Positions 1,152 through 57,633 of a stretch of DNA of 64,000 bases are shown one piece after another. Location: NCBI GenBank assembly GCA_965242705.1, contig OZ251486.1, forward strand, positions 719,806 through 783,805, written 5' to 3'. Numbering within the stretch: position 1 is the stretch's first letter; each line of letters opens with the position of its first letter. Below the pieces are notes generated by a model. The model was not told the origin of the DNA and made no database searches. It worked only from the letters and a program-made list of their open reading frames with translations. The position numbers and the translations under genes are program-made. Origin of the DNA: Bryobacterales bacterium (GTDB lineage: Bacteria > Acidobacteriota > Terriglobia > Bryobacterales > UBA6623).

Positions 1152-1688
1152 ATGGCAACGGTCCTGGTCAATCCACTCGACGAGCAGGCGCGCCCCGAGG
1201 CGAGTCCCGCGCCGCGTCTCGACACGCTGCAGGGCAAACGCCTGGCGCTGCTCGACATCAGCAAGCCAGGCGGCTCGATATTTCTCGATCGCCTGGAGGC
1301 GCTGCTGACCGAACGGTACGGGGCAGCGAGCATCCTGCGAATCGCCAAGCCCACGTTCGCCAAGCCCGCGCCCAGCGAAGTGCTGGCGAAAATCCGCGAG
1401 GCGCAGGTCCATGCGGCGGTCGAAGCGCTGGCCGATTGAGGCTCCTGCACGACGTGCAGTTTGCACGATTCGATACGGCTTGAAGCCATGGGCATCCCGA
1501 CAGCGCCGGTCGCTACCGACGTTTTCCGCACCGCCGCGCGGGCGCAGGCCGCCGGGTTGGGCCGGCCCGATTACGAAGCGGTGTACGTCGCTCATCCGAT
1601 TCAGGATCGAACCGCCGATGAAATCCGGCAGCGGGCGGACGGCGCCGCGTCGGAAATTGTGCGCCGTCTGACCGACGGTTTTGTGTAG
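1152..1688 (+). CDS. selenoprotein candidate (178 aa with UGA=Sec at 1437-1439), motif U-G-S-C-T-T-C, 'UGSC family'-like
   Basis: ORFs 1152..1439 and 1461..1688 share a frame and the only stop between them is TGA 1437-1439. Read-through gives ...VEALAD-U-GSCTTCSLHDSIRLEAMGIPTAP.... The downstream piece has no ATG or RBS of its own. A hairpin lies at SECIS distance. Confidence 0.7.
1450..1472 (+). promoter_or_regulatory. candidate bacterial SECIS hairpin
   Basis: The upper stem CGTGCA (1453-1458) pairs with TGCACG (1462-1467), with loop GTT at 1459-1461 about 20 nt after the UGA. A lower stem CGA/TCG follows a 2-nt bulge. An alternative overlapping hairpin is CTGCAC-GAC-GTGCAG at 1445-1459. 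Judged by eye; not folded. Confidence 0.45.
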
Positions 1689-16830: not shown

Positions 16831-16916
16831 GCCGGGGCGGCTTTAGCGATCATGCCGCGCATACCAGGAGCCGGCCGGGAATTACGCGAATCCCCATTGC
16901 AGCGACTTGGGCGCAG

Positions 16917-18152
16917 CTAGAATCCGATACGGGCGCTCCGTTTGTCGGACGCACTTCCTTTGTCCCGCATGTTTTTGATGGCCCGCGAAATCGCAAGCCC
17001 TGCCGACGAAACCACCAATACTTCCGATGGTATATCCGCTTCGAGCAGCGAGGATCGATCTTCTTCGATTGCAACGACAATCATGCGCCGCGCGTTCTTT
17101 GTCTTTGCGGCCTTCAGTAAGGCGGCTGCTGCCTGTCTCAACGTCTCCCCATGCCTCTGCACGCGGATCGGAATCGGCGCTCCCTCGTATGTTTCCGTCA
17201 GGAAAGCGTCAATTCCGTTGTTTCTTTGAACCGGTATGTGCGGACTACCGGCAAGCACCGAGAGCGCATCTACGTTTGCATTTCTGTATGACTCGGCGCC
17301 TTTTTTCATAAGACCGGACTCGGTTTTCACAGGATCGGTCAGCCTGCGGCGCGCAAGTTTTACGGCCTCCTCGGAAACATCTATGCCCTTGGCAAGCCTG
17401 CCGAGCAGCCCAGCGGCAACGAGAGTTGTTCCGCTGCCGCAGAACGGGTCGAGCACCACGTCGCCTTCGTCGGTTACAAGACGGACGATCCGTTCCAGAA
17501 GCAACACGGGTTTCTGTGTCGGGTATCCGATCCTTTCTTTTGCTTTGGGATTTAGAAAGGGAATTTCCCATACATCGCTTAGCGGAACGCCGCGTTTGCT
17601 TCCGGCATATAATATCTTTCCGTCGCGGTCTCGGGCATACACCGATTTATTGGCGGCGTCTCGGCTGCGCCGCTGCAAAATCTGATCCACGTTGGTAGTT
17701 GGAGAGTAGTCGGTCAGAATCGTGTTGAATTTGAAATCGCGGCTCTTGGAATAAAAAAGGATTGTTTGATGGGCGGGGAGAAGTTTCCGGGCGGAATTTG
17801 ACCACCGTTTGTAGCTCCAAATGATTTCCGACTGGAAGTTTCCTACGCCGAATATATCGTCAAGAATAGATCTGGCTACATGGGAGACTGTTCTGTCGCA
17901 GTGAAAAAAAATGGAGGCGGTCGATTTGAGTATCCGGTGCAGTTCAACTATGCGTTCACTCAGGAAAAGGCTGTAATGCGAAAGCGATTCCCATCGGTCT
18001 TCGAAAGAAAATTCCATTGTTCGGTCCCGCGTTGTCAAACTCTGCTTGCGTTGCGTAAAAAACGGCGGGTCGAGATAGACCAGATCGACCGTAGCGTCCG
18101 CCCATCGGCGAAGGATATCCAAACAATCCCCGTGATGTACTTCAGTGTCCAT
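16917..18152 (-). CDS. site-specific DNA methyltransferase, beta-class amino-MTase (probably N6-adenine), with a 140-aa C-terminal extension
   Basis: Motif IV LVYLDPPFF comes before motif I VVLDPFCGSGTT, which is the beta-class order. I prefer the MDTEVHHGDC start at 18152 to the track start at 18206. Low-GC gene (26/60 G+C at 17701-17760). Confidence 0.9.
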   Translation of the reverse strand: MDTEVHHGDCLDILRRWADATVDLVYLDPPFFTQRKQSLTTRDRTMEFSFEDRWESLSHYSLFLSERIVELHRILKSTASIFFHCDRTVSHVARSILDDIFGVGNFQSEIIWSYKRWSNSARKLLPAHQTILFYSKSRDFKFNTILTDYSPTTNVDQILQRRSRDAANKSVYARDRDGKILYAGSKRGVPLSDVWEIPFLNPKAKERIGYPTQKPVLLLERIVRLVTDEGDVVLDPFCGSGTTLVAAGLLGRLAKGIDVSEEAVKLARRRLTDPVKTESGLMKKGAESYRNANVDALSVLAGSPHIPVQRNNGIDAFLTETYEGAPIPIRVQRHGETLRQAAAALLKAAKTKNARRMIVVAIEEDRSSLLEADIPSEVLVVSSAGLAISRAIKNMRDKGSASDKRSARIGF

Positions 18153-18774
18153 AGTGTTTTGTATTTTCTTCAGCCAATTCCTTGAAAATGGAGAGAAGAT
18201 CGACATCTGTTCGATCTTTCACAAAGCGCCATGCGGCATCCCCAATATGATACTCTCCGCCGATCCCCTCGTATAACGTTTGAAGCGTCTGCTGTATGCG
18301 GATTGCCTGCTGCCGATTGGGGTAGTAGAACATGATTCGAATCGGATGGAATCCAGCGTTTTTGACCACTTTGAGCCGGGTGTGCTCCTTGGTGATATGG
18401 TCGCCGTCGGTTGTGGCGTCCCGCCACTTGATTTCGATAGCTTCCGATTGTAGGACACAGTCGATTTCAAACGTTTTCGGACGCCGACCTTCCGTATTGG
18501 GTATTCGTTGGGAAGCGGCCTGCGGATACTTCGCTTTGAAGCAAATTTTGACTGATTCTTCGATGAAGGAACCCGCGTACTTGTAGAGGAAACGCCCCTT
18601 GTTCTGGTAAATGTCGATAAGTTCACCCTCGCGGTCGGTGATGCCGAGGACTTTGTAAATCAGGTAATGCGACGTGTCATCGGACTTCATTTTTGCAACC
18701 CGCGCATCGACTTTTTCCTTGAGTTCGGAGGCGTACTGCGTGGAGAGCGCTTTGATTCGATCCGAAACGTTCAT
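18142..18774 (-). CDS. putative type II restriction endonuclease (PD-(D/E)xK-like)
   Basis: It sits directly upstream of the MTase and overlaps it by 11 nt. Candidate catalytic string is FEIDCVLQSEAIEIKWRD (D-x8-E-x-K). Low GC. I prefer the start at MNVSDRI (18774) to 18936. Confidence 0.55.
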   Translation of the reverse strand: MNVSDRIKALSTQYASELKEKVDARVAKMKSDDTSHYLIYKVLGITDREGELIDIYQNKGRFLYKYAGSFIEESVKICFKAKYPQAASQRIPNTEGRRPKTFEIDCVLQSEAIEIKWRDATTDGDHITKEHTRLKVVKNAGFHPIRIMFYYPNRQQAIRIQQTLQTLYEGIGGEYHIGDAAWRFVKDRTDVDLLSIFKELAEENTKHYGH

Positions 18775-18961
18775 GGCTTGCGGCAGGGACTGTTTACCGC
18801 CCGTGGATAGTGTACCGCGGCCGAGTATCGATGGTTTCGGCGCAGCAGGACAGTTGGTTTGGGGCGGTTGGTCATTGGCTTGGGATAGAGTTGGCGATGC
18901 CCGGCGCTTTTCCGACATGCGCGCCAACTTCGGCATGCCGTCCGGCGCCTGTACGATCCTC

Positions 18962-19051
18962 TGGCGGAGAGGGAGGGATTCGAACCCTCGTTAGAGTTTC
19001 CCCTAAACACGCTTTCCAAGCGTGCGCCTTCAGCCGCTCGGCCACCTCTCC
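18962..19051 (-). tRNA. tRNA-Ser (anticodon GGA)
   Basis: The reverse complement reads GGAGAGGTGGCCGAGCGGCTGAAGGCG-CACGC-TTGGAAA-GCGTG, then a long variable arm, GAGGGTTCGAATCCCTC, CCTCTCCGCCA. The cloverleaf is complete and CCA is encoded. Confidence 0.92.
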
Positions 19052-19060
19052 GCAGGGCGC

Positions 19061-19078
19061 GGCGCCCGCGCGGGCGCC
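19061..19078. repeat. perfect 18-bp GC palindrome GGCGCCCGCGCGGGCGCC
   Basis: Self-complementary by inspection. It lies 10 nt upstream of the tRNA-Ser 5' end, in the divergent region before the redoxin gene. Confidence 0.8.
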
Positions 19079-19151
19079 ATGTGCGCGGCAACACTTATTG
19101 TAGCGCCTCGCGTACCGGGAAGGGCGCTCCATGCGTCATAATGGTGGACTT

Positions 19152-20192
19152 ATGAGAATCCTGCTGCGTTCCGCCCTGCTGCTGGGCGCTTCCTCCATGC
19201 CTTTCGTTGCGGCGGAGTTGCCGACCGGCCCCGATGCGGGCGAAACGATCCCCGCGTTCGAAGCGGTCGATCAGACCGGCGCGAAACGAACCTTCGAGAA
19301 CCTCGCCGGGCCGAACGGCTTGCTGCTGCTCTTCTACCGCTCGGCCGACTGGTGACCGTTCTGCAAAGGCCAACTAGTTCAGTTGGAGCGCAAGCGCGAA
19401 GACTTCGCGGCCAAAGGCGTCAACGTCGCCGCTCTCAGCCACGACAACGTCGAGATCCTCAAGCACTTCGCCGCCAGAACGGGCATCGGCTACCCGCTGC
19501 TCTCCGACCCCGATTCCGCGGTCATCCGCGCGTTCGGCATCCTCAACGAGACGGTTCCCGAAACCCATCGGTTTTTCGGCGTGCCGGTTCCCGGCGAGTA
19601 TCTCATCGGCCCCGACAGGGTTGTCCGCGAAAAGTATTTCGAAGACAACTACCGCGACCGGTTTACCGCCGGCCGGGTGCTCGTGCGAACGCTGGATGCC
19701 GAAGCCGGCGCCGCTCGGCAAACGGCGGAAACAGCGCATCTGCGGATCGTTTCCTGGGCAAGCGACGCGGCTGTCCGCGGCGGCAACCGGTTTTCATTGG
19801 CGCTCGACATCGACTTGAAGCCCAAAATGCACGTCTATGCGCCGCGGGTCGAGGGCTATATCCCAATCGATTGGCAGATCGAAGACGCCGCCGGCGTAAC
19901 CCGTTACGACGTCGAGTATCCCGCATCGAAAGCGCTGCATCTGCCCGCCATCGGCGAAACGGTTCCCGTTTATGAAGGTTCGTTCCGGCTGCTGACCGAC
20001 GTGATGATCGGGCAGCCCAACGAGATCGAGCACTTGCTCGACGCAGACGGCCGTCTGACGCTGCGCGGGTCTCTCAAATACCAGGCCTGCGACGACAAGA
20101 TCTGTTACTTGCCGGAGTCCGTGCCGCTGGAGTGGACGCTGGATTTCGAGCAGCACGACCGCCAACGGGCGCCGGAAGCGCTGCGGCGCTAA
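19152..20192 (+). CDS. exported selenoprotein candidate: redoxin/peroxiredoxin-like domain with W-U-P-F-C fused to a DsbD-N-terminal-like domain (UGA=Sec at 19353-19355)
   Basis: ORFs 19131..19355 and 19383..20192 share a frame, joined only by TGA. Read-through gives LLLFYRSADW-U-PFCKGQLVQLE, where TGA sits at the first Cys of a WCxxC thioredoxin-fold motif. The C-terminus has KYQACDDKICYLPE. Signal peptide MRILLRSALLLGASSMPFVAAE. Confidence 0.75.
19370..19386 (+). promoter_or_regulatory. candidate bacterial SECIS hairpin
   Basis: CCAACT-AGTTC-AGTTGG is a perfect 6-bp stem. The 5-nt loop contains GU and lies 21-25 nt after the UGA. Not folded computationally. Confidence 0.4.
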
Positions 20193-21550
20193 GACTCCCG
20201 GCCGGCAATCGCCGCCGCGGCGGCCCGGGCGCGGCGAATGCAATCGGGAATGCCGACCCCGTCGTAGCCGTTGCCGCCCAGATGGAGGCCGGGAAGACGT
20301 TTCAATATCTCGTCGATTTTGGCCAACCGCGAGGCGTGCCCCACGGCGTAAAGCGCCATGGATTGCGGCATGCGGTTGACGCGGCAGGCAATCGGCTCGG
20401 CCCGGAAACGCATCAGGGCGCTCAACTCCGCGTGCGCCGTTTTCCGCACTGTTTCGTCGTCGGCCTGCATCAACTCATCCGCCGCCGCGCCGGTGAAAAA
20501 CGCCCGCAGCAGCGTTGCCTCGTCCGACGTTCGGCCGTCGAATTTCGTCTCCACCCAAGTACAGGCCGCAAGGGAGCGTCGTTCGGCGCGCGGAACGAGC
20601 AGGCCGAAGCCGTCCAGCGGATGGTTGAAGCCGCGCCGCCGATAAACCAGTCCGCCGACGATCGAGGAATTGTAGGGGATGCCGTCGAGAGTTTCGGCCA
20701 GTTCGCCGGAAGCTCGCCGAAGCAGTTTCGCCGCTTCGTGCGCCGGGACCGCGGCCGCCGCGTGCTCCGCCTCGATAGCGCCGTCTTCGAGCCGCACCCT
20801 CCAGCCGCCGCCGGTCCGCTCGATTTCGACAGCGCGCCCGCGCACGAAACGGCAGCTCGGAGCAATCGCCTTGCGCAGCGCATCGACCAGGGTTTCCAGC
20901 CCGTCTTTCAGCGTCAGGAACAGCGGCTCGCCGGTATTTGCCGTTCGGTTTTTCAGCGCGCCGCGCACGATGCTGCCGCGGCGCCTCTCGTATTCCACCA
21001 GCGCAGGCAGCACGGAATCGACCGACAACTGTTCGGGCGCGCCGCCGTACACCCCGGCGAGCAGAGGTTGAGCGAGGCGCTCGTTCCATTCCCCGCCGAA
21101 ATGATCGCGCACGAACGCGGCGACCGAACGGTCGGGGTATTGCGCGGGACGGCGAAACCATTCCAGCCCCATGCGCAGCTTCACGCCGATGCCGAACAGC
21201 CGCGAGGCCATCACGGCCGTCGGTTTCGCCGGCGCCAGGAACTGCATGCCGTCCGGCATGGGAATCAACTCGCCGCGGCGCGCGATGTAGGTCTTGCGGC
21301 GGTTGTCGTTCGAGCCGATAATCTGTTCCGCCAAGCCGAGTTCGCGCGCCAGGTCGAGCGCCCACGGCTTGCGCGCGAGCCAACTGTCCGGACCCGCTTC
21401 GAGCAGGCAGCCGCTTACGCGGTCGGTGCGGATCACGCCCCCCAGCCGCGCCTCGGCTTCGATCAGAACGGACGGAATGCCCTCGCGGCCGAGGTAATAC
21501 GCCGCCGCAAGCCCCGATATGCCTCCGCCGATAATGGCGACCGGTTTCAT
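20189..21550 (-). CDS. hemY: protoporphyrinogen/coproporphyrinogen oxidase (HemY type, FAD)
   Basis: MKPVAIIGGGISGLAAAYYL dinucleotide-binding N-terminus, 453 aa, and an ATGA-type overlap with hemE upstream. Confidence 0.85.
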   Translation of the reverse strand: MKPVAIIGGGISGLAAAYYLGREGIPSVLIEAEARLGGVIRTDRVSGCLLEAGPDSWLARKPWALDLARELGLAEQIIGSNDNRRKTYIARRGELIPMPDGMQFLAPAKPTAVMASRLFGIGVKLRMGLEWFRRPAQYPDRSVAAFVRDHFGGEWNERLAQPLLAGVYGGAPEQLSVDSVLPALVEYERRRGSIVRGALKNRTANTGEPLFLTLKDGLETLVDALRKAIAPSCRFVRGRAVEIERTGGGWRVRLEDGAIEAEHAAAAVPAHEAAKLLRRASGELAETLDGIPYNSSIVGGLVYRRRGFNHPLDGFGLLVPRAERRSLAACTWVETKFDGRTSDEATLLRAFFTGAAADELMQADDETVRKTAHAELSALMRFRAEPIACRVNRMPQSMALYAVGHASRLAKIDEILKRLPGLHLGGNGYDGVGIPDCIRRARAAAAAIAGRES

Positions 21551-22581
21551 GCCGCGTTCGTCGGCTGGTAATCGCGCACCATCCGCACGACCGCCTTCAC
21601 GTTCTCAACCGGCGTTTGCGGAATGATGCCGTGCCCCAGATTGAAAATGTGCCCCGGGCGCCCGTTTGCCTGCGCCAGGACGGCCTCCGCCTTGCGGCGC
21701 AACTCGGGCAGCGGAGCGAGCAAGGCGATAGGGTCGAGGTTGCCCTGAACGGCGGCCTCTTCGCCGGCTCGGCGCCATGCCTCGTCCAGCCGGACCCGCC
21801 AATCGAGGCCCAGCACGTCCCCGCCCGCGGCGTGAAACAATTCCAGAAAGGCGCCGTTCCCGGTTCCGAAATGGATGACGGGCACGGAAGTCGATTGAAT
21901 CTGCCGGATCAGCATCTCGGAATAGGGCCGCGCGAACCTCTCGTAATCATCGGGCGAAAGCGCGCCGACCCAACTGTCGAATATCTGGATCGCGGCGGCC
22001 CCGTTGAGCACCTGCGACGCCGCGAAAGGCGTCACGACCTGGACGATTTTTTCCATCAGGGCTTGCCAAGCCGCCGGCTCGCGCCACATCAGTTCTTTGG
22101 TCGCCGCGTAATTGCGGGAGCCGCCGCCTTCGATCATGTAGCTGGCCAAGGTAAACGGAGCGCCGACGAAACCGATGATCGGCACGCGGTCCGACAGGCT
22201 TTTCCTGACCAGCGCAACCGCCTCGCCGACATAGCCCAGATCGGCGGCGTTCGTTGCGGAAAGCCGCGCGGCGCCGGCCAACGACCGCACCGGGTTTGCG
22301 ATCCTCGGCCCGTCGCCTTGCACGAACTCCAGATCGAGTCCCATCGGCTCGAGCGGCAGCAGAAGATCGGCGAAGATAATCGCCGCATCCACGTCCAGCG
22401 CCTCGACCGGCTGTTGCGTCACCTCGCAGGCAAGCCGAGGCGTTTTGCATATCTCCAGAATCGAATGGCTCGCGCGGATTTTGCGGTACTCCGGCATGTA
22501 GCGGCCGGCCTGACGCATGAACCACACCGGCGTTCGATCGACGGGTTCCCCGCGGCATGCCCGAATGAAGCGGGACAGCAT
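21547..22581 (-). CDS. hemE: uroporphyrinogen decarboxylase
   Basis: N-terminal RTPVWFMRQAGRYMPEYR signature, 344 aa. Confidence 0.92.
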   Translation of the reverse strand: MLSRFIRACRGEPVDRTPVWFMRQAGRYMPEYRKIRASHSILEICKTPRLACEVTQQPVEALDVDAAIIFADLLLPLEPMGLDLEFVQGDGPRIANPVRSLAGAARLSATNAADLGYVGEAVALVRKSLSDRVPIIGFVGAPFTLASYMIEGGGSRNYAATKELMWREPAAWQALMEKIVQVVTPFAASQVLNGAAAIQIFDSWVGALSPDDYERFARPYSEMLIRQIQSTSVPVIHFGTGNGAFLELFHAAGGDVLGLDWRVRLDEAWRRAGEEAAVQGNLDPIALLAPLPELRRKAEAVLAQANGRPGHIFNLGHGIIPQTPVENVKAVVRMVRDYQPTNAA

Positions 22582-56814: not shown

Positions 56815-56958
56815 AGAGATGCCGCCGGCGCGCGTACCGACGGCTTGGCTTCAAAGTCAAGCATAGCGCCCATGCCGTGCTCACGGACATTTCCGACCGA
56901 ATCCGAAATTTTCCCGGTCCGCGTGTGAACTTTCCCACGTCGCCGCCGTTACTATTTC

Positions 56959-57633
56959 ATGGAAAGTGGTAGAACGATGGCTGTTGACGCAATGTCCGAA
57001 GTCTGGGGGAAATTGTGGGGCGCCGCGCCGCGGGCCGAGGGCTCCCAAGCGGCGTTGAAGCAACGCATGGAGCGCGACGCCCAATGGGTGGCCGAGTGCC
57101 TCGACGGAGACGACAGAGCCTGGGAACGCCTCGTCCGCGAGCACACCCGGTTGGTTTACGCGGCCTGCTACCGCTTTACCGGTGACGCCGAAACCGCCCG
57201 CGACCTGACCCAGGAAGTTTTTATCCGCGTGTTCCGCGGCCTCCACGCCTACGACCCGAAAGCCGGCGGGTTCCGCACGTGGCTGATGCGCCTGACGCGC
57301 AATCTGCTGATCGACGACTACCGCAGAAACAAGAAGCACCGCCTCGCCGACCCGCTCGAAGACAAGCCGGCAGTGCTCGAACAGCGATCGGGAATCGGCA
57401 GCCGGGCCGACAACACGCTGCGGGCGCGTGAAGCGAACGATCTGTTGCAGGCCGCGCTGTCGAAGTTGTCCCCCGACCTTCGCGAGGCGGTCATCCTGCG
57501 CGACATCCAGGAAATGGAATACCGCGAAATCGCGGCGACGCTCGGCGTTGCGGAAGGAACCGTGAAATCGCGCATCAGCAGAGGGCGCCGCGAGTTCGCC
57601 AGGCAACTGCGCGCGTTGGGGTACGAAGCATGA
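56959..57633 (+). CDS. ECF-type RNA polymerase sigma-70 factor
   Basis: Region 2 DLTQEVFIRVF...FRTWLMRLTRNLLIDDYRR and region 4 EMEYREIAATLGVAEGTVKSRISRGR. The start is uncertain. Confidence 0.88.
   Translation: MESGRTMAVDAMSEVWGKLWGAAPRAEGSQAALKQRMERDAQWVAECLDGDDRAWERLVREHTRLVYAACYRFTGDAETARDLTQEVFIRVFRGLHAYDPKAGGFRTWLMRLTRNLLIDDYRRNKKHRLADPLEDKPAVLEQRSGIGSRADNTLRAREANDLLQAALSKLSPDLREAVILRDIQEMEYREIAATLGVAEGTVKSRISRGRREFARQLRALGYEA

What the first reader, a model, noticed from the sequence alone, without database searches (positions are those of the whole stretch)
19131..20192. Exported redoxin with W-U-P-F-C: TGA at the catalytic Cys position of a thioredoxin-fold motif, fused to a DsbD-N-like domain
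**Seen in sequence**
- ORFs 19131..19355 and 19383..20192 are in frame and separated only by TGA 19353-19355.
- Read-through yields GLLLLFYRSADW-U-PFCKGQLVQLERKREDFAAKGVNVAALSHDN...
- The stop therefore falls exactly where AhpC/TSA-redoxin proteins carry the first Cys of WCxxC.
- A perfect 6-bp hairpin (CCAACT-AGUUC-AGUUGG, 19370-19386) places a GU-containing loop 21-25 nt after the UGA.
- The protein starts with a signal peptide. It ends with a domain carrying KYQACDDKICYLPE, the Cys pair context of DsbD-alpha / 'DsbC corrector' type domains.

**Inference**
- A secreted or periplasmic UxxC oxidoreductase physically fused to a DsbD-alpha-like electron-relay domain is an unusual architecture.
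- With the first candidate 18 kb away, it implies this organism decodes Sec. An ORF caller splits both genes.
Basis: partly seen in the sequence, partly recalled or inferred. Interest (0 to 1): 0.75.

Follow-up and report, generated by a model that had tools for sequence, protein, structure and literature searches.

The report
Exported Prx-like selenoprotein fused to DsbD-alpha
This is one gene, not two: the internal TGA almost certainly encodes selenocysteine in the active site of a secreted thiol-redox enzyme that is common in Bryobacterales soil bacteria and is routinely cut short by gene callers.

Summary
The stretch 19131-20192 is a single 353-codon frame interrupted only by TGA 19353-19355. 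Its product has an AhpC/TSA (Prx-like) domain and a DsbD_N domain.

Evidence that the TGA encodes selenocysteine:
- In 80 related Acidobacteriota loci plus the window, the codon is TGA in 76 and TGC (Cys) in 5. Both flanks stay conserved down to about 48% identity.
- Of the 19 full-length database homologues aligned, 18 read RSADW-C-PxCK.
- The hairpin at 19370-19386 fits the published bacterial SECIS model and is kept in every TGA locus, with compensatory synonymous changes. All 9 Cys-form loci have lost it.
- The window holds a second selenoprotein gene, UGSC family, with its TGA at 1437-1439. It scores above the NCBIfam cutoff, so the organism very probably decodes Sec.

Classification: Sec occupies the first position of a thioredoxin-type CxxC motif (as in ResA). 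The Pro, Thr and Arg of true peroxiredoxins are absent. This makes it a thiol:disulfide oxidoreductase, not a peroxidase. The C-terminal domain models as a ScsB/DsbD alpha-type fold with an invariant C-x4-C pair.

UxxC Prx-like selenoproteins are already known. The fusion to a DsbD-alpha domain, and its wide spread under systematic mis-annotation, is what is new. The direction of electron flow and the substrates are inferred only.

The parts
19131..20192 (+). Complete selenoprotein coding sequence: 353 codons with Sec at codon 75 and stop TAA at 20190-20192. The true start may instead be the second ATG at 19152 (MRILL...).
   Evidence: Single frame with one internal TGA. tblastn matches in relatives span query residues 1-353 across the TGA. 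Full-length Cys homologues are 350-370 aa.
19152..19214 (+). Putative Sec-type signal peptide MRILLRSALLLGASSMPFVAA, with the likely cut before Glu.
   Evidence: Judged by inspection. Hydrophobic N-termini are present in all 19 full-length homologues aligned. No signal-peptide predictor was available.
19239..19631 (+). Prx-like (AhpC/TSA, thioredoxin-fold) domain, residues 37-167.
   Evidence: Pfam PF00578 E 8e-26 and PF08534 E 1.1e-13. PDB profile hits to AhpE, ResA and BCP. The AF2 model of orthologue P0015 has pLDDT 90, and Foldseek finds BcpB/AhpE/ResA at TM about 0.77 normalised to the target.
19353..19355 (+). UGA selenocysteine codon (residue 75).
   Evidence: TGA in 76 of 81 orthologous loci, including the window, and TGC in the other 5. 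Cys at this column in 18 of the 19 full-length homologues aligned.
19353..19364 (+). Redox motif U-P-F-C (UxxC).
   Evidence: Aligns with WCPHCK of ResA. The second Cys aligns with the peroxidatic Cys of AhpE.
19370..19386 (+). Bacterial SECIS hairpin: 6-bp stem (19370-19375 with 19381-19386) and 5-nt loop AGUUC (19376-19380) with an invariant G-U at loop positions 2-3.
   Evidence: 97.6% of cells are paired across 75 distinct sequences. Pair 21:31 is GC 51 / AU 20 / GU 3 and pair 22:30 is CG 73 / UA 2. Pairing collapses to 7-49% when partners are slid. 65 of 76 Sec loci have 6/6 pairs, against 19% of synonymous shuffles, and the 9 Cys loci have 2-4 of 6. The hairpin meets the bSECIS criteria of PMC13188914. 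With the lower stem, 19356-19395 folds at -8.5 kcal/mol.
19782..20117 (+). DsbD-alpha/ScsB-alpha-like immunoglobulin-fold domain, residues 218-329.
   Evidence: Pfam PF11412 E 5.8e-12. The AF2 model of window residues 200-353 has pLDDT 90.3 and is all-beta. The best PDB fold match is 6C29, the ScsB N-terminal periplasmic domain (E 1.6e-4, TM 0.60).
20088..20105 (+). Invariant Cys pair C320-x4-C325 (YQACDDKICYLP).
   Evidence: Y, Q, A, C, D, D, C, Y and P of the YQACDDxxCYxP motif are invariant in alignments A1, A3 and A5.
1152..1688 (+). Supporting feature, not part of the gene: a second selenoprotein gene (UGSC family) with an in-frame TGA at 1437-1439.
   Evidence: NCBIfam NF041046 'UGSC family (seleno)protein', 149 bits against a cutoff of 125, with the TGA at the U of UGSC.

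Best explanation
The stretch 19131-20192 is one gene for an exported selenoprotein. During translation, UGA 19353-19355 is recoded to selenocysteine. The small hairpin 15 nt downstream (19370-19386, loop NGUNN) acts as the bacterial SECIS element that recruits SelB with Sec-tRNA(Sec).

The mature protein has two redox modules. The first is an N-terminal thioredoxin-fold domain of the AhpC/TSA superfamily, with the active site W-U-P-F-C. Sec sits at the position of the attacking Cys of ResA/TlpA/CcmG-type CxxC reductases. The second is a C-terminal immunoglobulin-fold domain of the DsbD-alpha/ScsB-alpha type with an invariant C-x4-C pair.

I propose that it works in the cell envelope as a thiol/selenol:disulfide oxidoreductase of a reductive pathway. 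Reducing equivalents would come from a membrane DsbD/CcdA/ScsB-type transporter and pass between the alpha-like Cys pair and the UxxC site within one polypeptide. They would then be spent on oxidised envelope substrates. Sec would make the exchange steps faster and more resistant to over-oxidation.

Shown: single conserved frame, Sec/Cys pair, conserved covarying SECIS, domain identities, and loss of peroxiredoxin catalytic residues.

Inferred: export, the intramolecular relay, its direction, the electron source, and the substrates. A role in envelope oxidative or chlorine stress is suggested only by relatives, where the gene sits behind an ECF sigma/NrsF pair.
For: - Frame and motif.
- Domains.
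- Truncation in databases: close homologues are 269-276 aa and start just after the TGA, while 350-370-aa homologues carry Cys.
- Codon conservation: TGA in 76 of 81 loci and TGC in 5, with the upstream frame conserved (GLLLLFxRSADW) at 48-87% identity.
- Hairpin: 97.6% paired, with compensatory changes at three pairs. None of 500 shuffles reaches the observed covariation score, and slid controls collapse.
- Synonymous-site test: 85.5% of Sec loci have 6/6 pairs against 19% of synonymous shuffles. The 9 Cys loci have 2-4 of 6, and several of them encode the same QLVQLE peptide.
- bSECIS criteria are met: 5-nt loop, 6-bp stem, G then U at loop positions 2-3, 20-nt spacing, -8.5 kcal/mol.
- UGA is still the main stop codon here, used by 21 of 42 likely genes, so the code is not reassigned.
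- A second curated selenoprotein family (UGSC) has its TGA in the same window.
- Sec aligns with the first Cys of ResA's CxxC.
- The C-domain fold is closest to ScsB-alpha, and its Cys pair is invariant.
- The two-domain model is confident (pLDDT 90, pTM 0.82).
- An ECF sigma plus NrsF lies directly upstream on the same strand in 8 of 9 Cys-form loci and 8 of 76 Sec-form loci. SigF/NrsF systems sense envelope oxidative or chlorine stress (PMC4436054, PMC3511200).
- Envelope Prx-like proteins reduced through DsbD-family alpha domains are established for ScsB -> TlpA -> PprX and for PrxL (PMC3322552).
Against: - No selA, selB, selD or tRNA-Sec was found in the 64-kb window. The protein search was only a crude motif scan, and the rest of the genome could not be searched.
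- No direct evidence exists for selenium incorporation.
- The hairpin is small. Alone it folds at -5.2 to -6.5 kcal/mol, and the region is not more stable than shuffled sequence.
- Rfam has no matching family.
- No CcdA/DsbD/ScsB gene is a conserved neighbour, so the electron source is a guess.
- The window itself lacks the ECF sigma/NrsF linkage.
- I could not obtain model coordinates, so the distance between the two redox centres is unknown.
- The C-domain Cys pair could not be aligned residue by residue to the catalytic Cys of solved DsbD-alpha.
- One full-length homologue (P0087) has Leu at the Sec position. This is unexplained, and its DNA could not be retrieved.
Confidence: 0.9

Rival explanations
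1. Pseudogene or sequencing error: a TGC-to-TGA nonsense change has inactivated an ordinary Cys-type redoxin gene in this organism.
For: A single base separates TGA from TGC, and Cys-form orthologues exist.
Against: The same TGA occurs in 75 other genomes down to about 48% protein identity, with both flanks under protein-level conservation. A dedicated hairpin is co-conserved with TGA and lost with TGC.
Confidence: 0.01
2. Two separate genes: a 74-residue secreted peptide, and a 269-residue protein that initiates at TTG 19383, as gene callers annotate it.
For: Public databases hold hundreds of 269-276-aa models of this kind. An in-frame TTG/GTG start exists just after the TGA.
Against: The downstream product would lack its signal peptide, the first beta-strands of the thioredoxin fold and the whole redox motif. 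The annotated starts differ between loci (MERK..., MQLERK...) and lie inside the conserved hairpin. Full-length Cys homologues are collinear across the junction.
Confidence: 0.03
3. It is a genuine peroxidase. The second Cys (C78, at the peroxiredoxin peroxidatic position) attacks peroxide, and Sec75 acts as the resolving residue. The alpha-like domain recycles the resulting selenylsulfide.
For: C78 aligns with the peroxidatic Cys of AhpE. The second unit of the tandem variant has S-x-x-C, the Ser/Thr-x-x-Cys pattern of peroxiredoxins. A periplasmic peroxiredoxin fed by a DsbD-family protein is known (PprX, PMC3322552). The linkage to an oxidative-stress sigma/anti-sigma pair fits.
Against: Three of the four peroxiredoxin catalytic residues are absent: Pro becomes Ser71, Thr becomes Sec75, and Arg becomes Pro. 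The periplasmic Prx-like protein PrxL, which also lacks these residues, showed no peroxidase activity (PMC3322552).
Confidence: 0.15
4. Reverse relay, a split DsbD. The UxxC thioredoxin-fold domain plays the part of DsbD-gamma. It takes electrons from a CcdA-type membrane protein and hands them to the fused alpha-like domain, which then reduces several envelope partners.
For: In DsbD the order of flow is gamma (thioredoxin fold) to alpha (Ig fold). Free-standing alpha domains working with CcdA plus an exported thioredoxin-like protein have been proposed (PMC3322552). ResA-type proteins take electrons directly from CcdA (established knowledge of Bacillus cytochrome c maturation).
Against: The N-domain belongs to the AhpC/TSA-ResA group, which are typical acceptors, not to the DsbD-gamma family. 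No ccdA neighbour is conserved. Nothing tested here discriminates the direction.
Confidence: 0.3

Closest known systems
Prx-like thiol:disulfide oxidoreductase selenoproteins (PF00578, UxxC/UxxU; Geobacter, Syntrophus, Desulfotalea; the GOS 'Prx-like 1-3' groups)
   Same: AhpC/TSA scaffold. Sec is the first residue of UxxC, at the position where peroxiredoxins have Thr. Cys-containing homologues exist, and the SECIS lies immediately downstream (PMC1794560, PMC2398784, PMC13188914, PMC1914089).
   Different: This family carries a signal peptide and a C-terminal DsbD_N domain. No such fusion appears in the catalogues I read. The GOS 'Prx-like 3 + Unknown_3' fusion has a CxxC in its extra domain, not C-x4-C. 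No curated NCBIfam selenoprotein model reaches its cutoff. Orthology to the type member WP_010940744.1 was not tested.
ResA / TlpA / CcmG extracytoplasmic thiol-disulfide oxidoreductases
   Same: Exported thioredoxin-fold reductases with W-C-x-x-C. The profile alignment places Sec on ResA's first Cys, and the fold matches at TM about 0.72-0.77.
   Different: Those proteins use Cys, are single-domain (membrane-anchored or soluble), and are reduced in trans by CcdA or DsbD. Here the nucleophile is Sec and an alpha-type domain is fused in cis.
DsbD-alpha / ScsB-alpha domains and the ScsB -> TlpA -> PprX / PrxL envelope pathway
   Same: Ig-fold domain with a redox Cys pair near its C-terminal end. 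The best structural match is ScsB-alpha, 6C29, and Pfam DsbD_N matches. These domains exchange electrons with thioredoxin-fold partners, including Prx-like proteins (PMC3322552).
   Different: In DsbD and ScsB the alpha domain is part of a membrane protein (alpha-beta-gamma). Here it is soluble, C-terminal, and fused to its presumed partner. The Cys spacing is C-x4-C. From memory, E. coli DsbD-alpha is C103-x5-C109; this was not verified here.
Peroxiredoxin selenoproteins (TxxU) and canonical peroxiredoxins
   Same: Same superfamily and overall fold. The second Cys occupies the peroxidatic position.
   Different: Sec is at the Thr position, not the peroxidatic one. The conserved Pro, Thr and Arg are absent, so peroxidase chemistry is unlikely.

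Membership tests
Bacterial selenoprotein gene (SelB/SECIS-dependent UGA recoding) | In-frame UGA that aligns with a conserved Cys in homologues (Sec/Cys pair) | tested here: met
   18 of the 19 full-length homologues aligned have Cys at the column. 5 orthologous loci have TGC where 76 have TGA.
Bacterial selenoprotein gene (SelB/SECIS-dependent UGA recoding) | UGA and coding conservation on both sides maintained across species | tested here: met
   tblastn matches span residues about 1-353 in 80 genomes. The upstream peptide GLLLLFxRSADW is conserved.
Bacterial selenoprotein gene (SelB/SECIS-dependent UGA recoding) | bSECIS stem-loop: 3-9 nt loop, 4-16 bp stem, G in the first two loop positions followed by G/U, 16-37 nt from UGA to loop, MFE <= -7.5 kcal/mol (PMC13188914) | tested here: met
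   5-nt loop AGUUC (family NGUNN), 6-bp stem, 20-nt spacing, and -8.5 kcal/mol for 19356-19395. Covariation and loss in Cys forms are shown. The apical hairpin alone reaches only -5.2 to -6.5 kcal/mol.
Bacterial selenoprotein gene (SelB/SECIS-dependent UGA recoding) | Genome encodes selA, selB, selC (tRNA-Sec) and selD | not testable with these tools
   No tRNA-Sec (ARAGORN and Rfam) and no SelA/SelB/SelD-like match in a crude motif scan in the 64-kb window. The rest of the genome is not available. Indirect support: a UGSC family selenoprotein gene with its TGA lies in the same window.
Bacterial selenoprotein gene (SelB/SECIS-dependent UGA recoding) | Selenium physically present in the protein | not testable with these tools
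   Requires 75Se labelling or mass spectrometry.
Prx-like thiol:disulfide oxidoreductase selenoprotein family | PF00578 domain with a UxxC (or UxxU) motif at the Thr-x-x-Cys position of peroxiredoxins | tested here: met
   PF00578 E 8e-26. U-P-F-C, with C78 on the AhpE peroxidatic Cys and U75 three residues before it.
Canonical peroxiredoxin | Catalytic P-x-x-x-T/S-x-x-C motif plus a conserved Arg | tested here: not met
   The motif reads S71-A-D-W-U75-P-F-C78. The AhpE Arg116 column is Pro (GVPVPGEYLI against GIANRGTFVV).
DsbD_N (DsbD-alpha / ScsB-alpha) | Match to PF11412 above the gathering score | tested here: met
   46.1 bits against 25, residues 218-329. Also met in homologues P0009, P0015, P0016 and P0087.
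DsbD_N (DsbD-alpha / ScsB-alpha) | Immunoglobulin-like beta-sandwich fold resembling solved alpha domains | tested here: met
   All-beta model with pLDDT 90.3. The top PDB match is ScsB-alpha 6C29, E 1.6e-4, TM 0.60, 137 columns. E. coli DsbD-alpha itself was not among the top hits.
DsbD_N (DsbD-alpha / ScsB-alpha) | Redox-active Cys pair equivalent to the catalytic pair of DsbD-alpha | tested here: inconclusive
   A C-x4-C pair is invariant.
SelL-related redox protein (NCBIfam NF040769) | Score at or above the curated cutoff (120 bits) | tested here: not met
   51 bits, over residues 39-139 only.

The most novel reading that the evidence does not exclude
The protein would be a self-contained, selenium-dependent 'gamma-alpha' relay that, together with a CcdA-type membrane protein, forms a split DsbD system in Acidobacteriota. 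Sec would be the entry point for electrons into the envelope. This would be the first selenium-dependent general reductive pathway of a bacterial cell envelope, deployed by aerobic soil bacteria and controlled in some lineages by an NrsF-type oxidant sensor.
Probability: 0.2. Interest if true: 0.7.

Novelty: new variant of a known kind. Interest (0 to 1): 0.5.

Why it matters
- Annotation: hundreds of public gene models for this family are truncated to 269-276 aa. They lack the signal peptide and the active site, so any function or localisation inferred from them is wrong. One profile model with Sec at the active site would correct the annotation across Bryobacterales.
- Biology: Bryobacterales, members of the Acidobacteriota, would be spending selenium on an exported thiol-redox enzyme. 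This widens the picture of Sec use beyond anaerobes and marine plankton.
- Mechanism: a natural fusion of a DsbD/ScsB alpha-type domain to its thioredoxin-fold partner is a ready-made system for studying how alpha domains recognise and exchange electrons with partners. The natural Sec and Cys versions also allow a direct comparison of what Sec contributes.

Tried and rejected
- The neighbouring tRNA (18962-19051, minus strand) was checked as a possible tRNA-Sec. It is tRNA-Ser with anticodon GGA.
- Rfam scans found no SECIS or other family at the site, either over the whole window at gathering scores or over 19250-19500 at E <= 10.
- Thermodynamic stability of the post-TGA region is no better than shuffles (z = +0.41), so it was dropped as evidence in favour of comparative tests.
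- The search for a conserved redox partner in 3-kb flanks of 81 loci found no CcdA/DsbD/ScsB. Only housekeeping-looking ORFs recur downstream in about 25 loci; these were identified by eye and not annotated.
- The ECF sigma/NrsF linkage seen in relatives is absent from the window. One unrelated ECF sigma lies at 56929-57630, with no NrsF beside it.
- A crude motif scan for SelA/SelB/SelD in the window found nothing. This is not a real test.
Orthologue P0015 (about 61% identical) was modelled instead.
- PDB sequence searches with the C-terminal domain, both single sequence and profile, found no DsbD-alpha. A fold search was needed.
- The AFDB50 fold library was unavailable.
- DNA for P0087, the homologue with Leu at the Sec position, could not be retrieved.
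- The GOS 'Prx-like 3 + Unknown_3' fusion was considered as a prior description and rejected, because its extra domain has a CxxC and three Cys.
Full report
**1. The observation**

Reading 18900-20400 and translating 19131-20192 gives a single 353-codon frame. Its only internal stop is TGA at 19353-19355, in the context GLLLLFYRSADW*PFCKGQLVQLERKRED. The hairpin CCAACU-AGUUC-AGUUGG is at 19370-19386. With Cys substituted for the stop, Pfam finds AhpC-TSA at residues 37-167 (E 8e-26) and DsbD_N at residues 218-329 (E 5.8e-12, above the gathering score).

On its own, an in-frame TGA is not notable here. The window is 65% GC and contains 157 TGAs flanked by open stretches of at least 40 codons. 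The 68 nt after the TGA also fold no better than shuffled sequence (z = +0.41). The case therefore rests on comparison with relatives.

**2. Homologues and the Sec/Cys pair**

A protein search found 1244 related clusters. The closest (60-99% identity) are nearly all 269-276 aa and cover only the 76-77% of the query that follows the TGA. The full-length hits (about 330-380 aa) are 51-61% identical. In the alignment, 18 of 19 full-length proteins read RSADW-C-PxCK at the TGA column. The short ones begin at M-E-R-K or M-Q-L-E-R-K just downstream.

The best 80 are almost all labelled Bryobacterales or other Acidobacteriota MAGs; three records (L024, L050, L068) carry Actinomycetota-type labels. 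Their tblastn matches run across the stop, covering query residues about 1-353.

Extracting the codon at that column gives TGA in 75 of those loci plus the window, and TGC in 5 (L039, L046, L047, L051, L054). The upstream peptide (GPxGLLLLFxRSADW) is as conserved as the downstream one, down to about 48% overall identity. This excludes a pseudogene, a sequencing error, and two independent genes.

**3. The SECIS element**

Aligning 66 nt from the TGA in all 76 Sec loci needs no gaps. I tested the six pairs at columns 18-23 with 29-34.
- 97.6% of cells form standard pairs. Pairing drops to 7-49% when the 3' partners are slid by 1-3 columns.
- Pair 21:31 is G-C in 51 sequences, A-U in 20 and G-U in 3.
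- Pair 22:30 is C-G in 73 and U-A in 2.
- Pair 18:34 is C-G in 64, U-A in 1 and unpaired in 10.
- None of 500 column shuffles reaches the observed covariation score. RNAalifold independently predicts the inner five pairs.

The changes are synonymous (CAA/CAG Gln, UUG/CUG Leu). I therefore resampled synonymous codons with the family's own usage. Only 19% of resamples give 6/6 pairs, against 85.5% observed, and every Sec locus has at least 5/6. The nine Cys-form loci have only 2-4 of 6 pairs. These are the 5 TGC loci above plus L081-L084, which represent two further genes. Several of them encode the same QLVQLE peptide.

The loop is NGUNN with invariant G25 and U26. The spacing from UGA to the loop is 20 nt. 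The published bacterial SECIS model asks for a 3-9 nt loop, a 4-16 bp stem, a G in the first two loop positions usually followed by G or U, 16-37 nt spacing, and MFE <= -7.5 kcal/mol (PMC13188914). The window element meets each criterion, reaching -8.5 kcal/mol once the short lower stem is included. Rfam has no family for it.

**4. Does the organism decode Sec?**

The adjacent tRNA is tRNA-Ser(GGA), not tRNA-Sec. No SelA/SelB/SelD-like motif was seen in the window, although that scan was crude. The genome outside the window could not be searched.

ORF 1152..1439 ends ...VEALAD-TGA and continues in frame as GSCTTCSLHDS... to 1688. With Cys at the stop it matches NCBIfam NF041046 'UGSC family (seleno)protein' at 149 bits, against a cutoff of 125.

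UGA also remains the commonest stop codon of likely genes here (21 of 42). The genetic code is therefore not reassigned, and the recoding is site-specific.

**5. What kind of enzyme**

A profile search of the PDB aligns the motif with ResA's WCPHCK. Sec falls on the first, attacking Cys. The same search against AhpE places the second Cys (C78) on the peroxidatic Cys and Sec on the Thr of TxxC. The peroxiredoxin catalytic residues are otherwise missing. The Pro position is Ser71, and the Arg (AhpE R116, GIANRGTF) is Pro (GVPVPGEY). This is the pattern the literature calls 'Prx-like thiol:disulfide oxidoreductase'. That family is a recognised, computationally predicted selenoprotein family with UxxC, as opposed to the TxxU of peroxiredoxin selenoproteins (PMC1794560, PMC13188914, PMC1914089).

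An AlphaFold model of the closest full-length Cys orthologue (P0015) is confident (pLDDT 90, pTM 0.82). Foldseek matches only its N-domain, to BcpB, AhpE and ResA.

The window's own C-terminal 154 residues model as an all-beta sandwich (pLDDT 90.3). The best solved match is the N-terminal periplasmic domain of ScsB (6C29; E 1.6e-4, TM 0.60). The pair C320-x4-C325 in YQACDDKxCYLP is invariant. I could not align this pair residue by residue to the catalytic cysteines of a solved alpha domain. I also could not obtain coordinates to measure the distance between the redox centres.

**6. Context**

The window gene stands alone.
- Upstream lie tRNA-Ser and a 2-kb region of lower GC (52.9% against 65%). 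That region holds a DNA methyltransferase-like ORF and an unknown ORF.
- Downstream, the gene converges on and overlaps by 4 nt a protoporphyrinogen oxidase gene, which is followed by hemE.
- Across 81 loci no CcdA/DsbD/ScsB-like neighbour is conserved.

Cys-form loci fetched by exact protein look-up show the gene directly behind an ECF sigma factor and an NrsF-type anti-sigma factor (PF06532) on the same strand. Iterative searches find this pair upstream in 8 of 9 Cys-form loci and 8 of 76 Sec-form loci. It is not found in the window or its nearest relatives.

SigF/NrsF systems respond to envelope oxidative, chlorine or metal stress (PMC4436054, PMC3511200). This hints at a stress-defence role for the family, but it is indirect evidence for the window gene.

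**7. Mechanism proposed**

Shown: one conserved frame, Sec at the nucleophile position of a CxxC-type site, a covarying SECIS, and a fused alpha-type domain with an invariant Cys pair.

Inferred:
- The protein is exported.
- The two redox centres exchange electrons within the chain.
- The reducing power comes from a DsbD/CcdA/ScsB-type membrane transporter.
- The protein reduces oxidised envelope targets.

The precedent is the ScsB -> TlpA -> PprX pathway, together with PrxL, a ScsB-dependent Prx-like protein without peroxidase activity. The same paper proposes that free alpha domains work with CcdA plus an exported thioredoxin-like protein (PMC3322552).

Two directions of flow remain open: alpha to UxxC (a terminal reductase), or UxxC to alpha (a split DsbD 'gamma-alpha' module). 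A true peroxidase role is less likely given the missing catalytic residues, but it is not excluded. The second unit of a tandem four-domain variant (P0009/P0016) has S-x-x-C, the peroxiredoxin-like pattern. The first unit of that variant also has an in-frame TGA with the hairpin (L085).

**8. Novelty and verdict**

UxxC Prx-like selenoproteins have been known since 2005-2006, so the principle is not new. I did not find three things in the catalogues and reviews I searched or among curated NCBIfam models, where the best hit is SelL-related at 51 bits against a 120-bit cutoff:
- this exported architecture with a DsbD/ScsB alpha-type domain;
- its dominance in Bryobacterales;
- its systematic truncation in public annotation. 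One example is P0075, named 'redoxin domain-containing protein', 271 aa.

I rate it a new variant of a known kind. It is well supported as a selenoprotein (about 0.9). The mechanism is plausible but untested. Interest is moderate.

Noticed in passing
window 1152-1688 (+), TGA at 1437-1439: A second selenoprotein gene: UGSC family (seleno)protein, NCBIfam NF041046, 149 bits against a cutoff of 125. The TGA is at the U of UGSC, and the gene is split by ORF calling into 1152..1439 and 1461..1688. The region after its TGA folds into a hairpin (GUGCAG/UUGCAC), but this was not analysed comparatively.
   Followed up: partly
window 16900-19051: A segment of about 2 kb with GC 52.9% (window mean 65%) and low third-position GC. 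It carries an adenine DNA methyltransferase-like ORF (16917-18206, minus strand) and an unknown ORF (18142-18936, minus strand), and directly abuts tRNA-Ser(GGA) at 18962-19051 (minus strand). It looks like a foreign island, possibly a restriction-modification remnant, integrated next to the tRNA.
   Followed up: partly
window 20189-22581 (-): The selenoprotein gene's stop (20190-20192) overlaps by 4 nt the 3' end of a convergent protoporphyrinogen oxidase gene (20189-21550). That gene is followed by uroporphyrinogen decarboxylase hemE (21547-22581). No terminator can fit between the convergent genes.
   Followed up: no
L081-L084, L003, L012, L025, L026, L029, L033, L042, L043, L046, L047, L051, L054 (upstream of the match): An ECF sigma factor plus an NrsF-type anti-sigma factor (PF06532) lies immediately upstream on the same strand in 8 of 9 Cys-form loci, but in only 8 of 76 Sec-form loci. 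The regulatory linkage seems to have been lost in most Sec-form lineages, including the window.
   Followed up: partly
L085:2201-4351 (protein P0009; also P0016): A tandem four-domain variant: Prx-like / DsbD_N / Prx-like / DsbD_N in one chain. The annotated 616-aa protein starts after an in-frame TGA at L085 2477-2479 (FFRSADW*PYCKTQLVELQQ), which has its own hairpin. The second unit has W-S-x-x-C in place of W-U/C-x-x-C.
   Followed up: partly
protein P0087 (ENA contig, 355 aa): A full-length homologue with Leu at the Sec/Cys column (RSADWLPYCKS), otherwise close to Sec-form sequences such as L056. It could be a TGA-to-TTA change, an error, or an inactive copy. Its DNA was not retrievable.
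   Followed up: partly
window 56929-57630 (+): An ECF sigma factor gene related to those linked to the family elsewhere (E 9e-45 in an iterative search), but 37 kb from the selenoprotein gene and with no NrsF homologue beside it.
   Followed up: no
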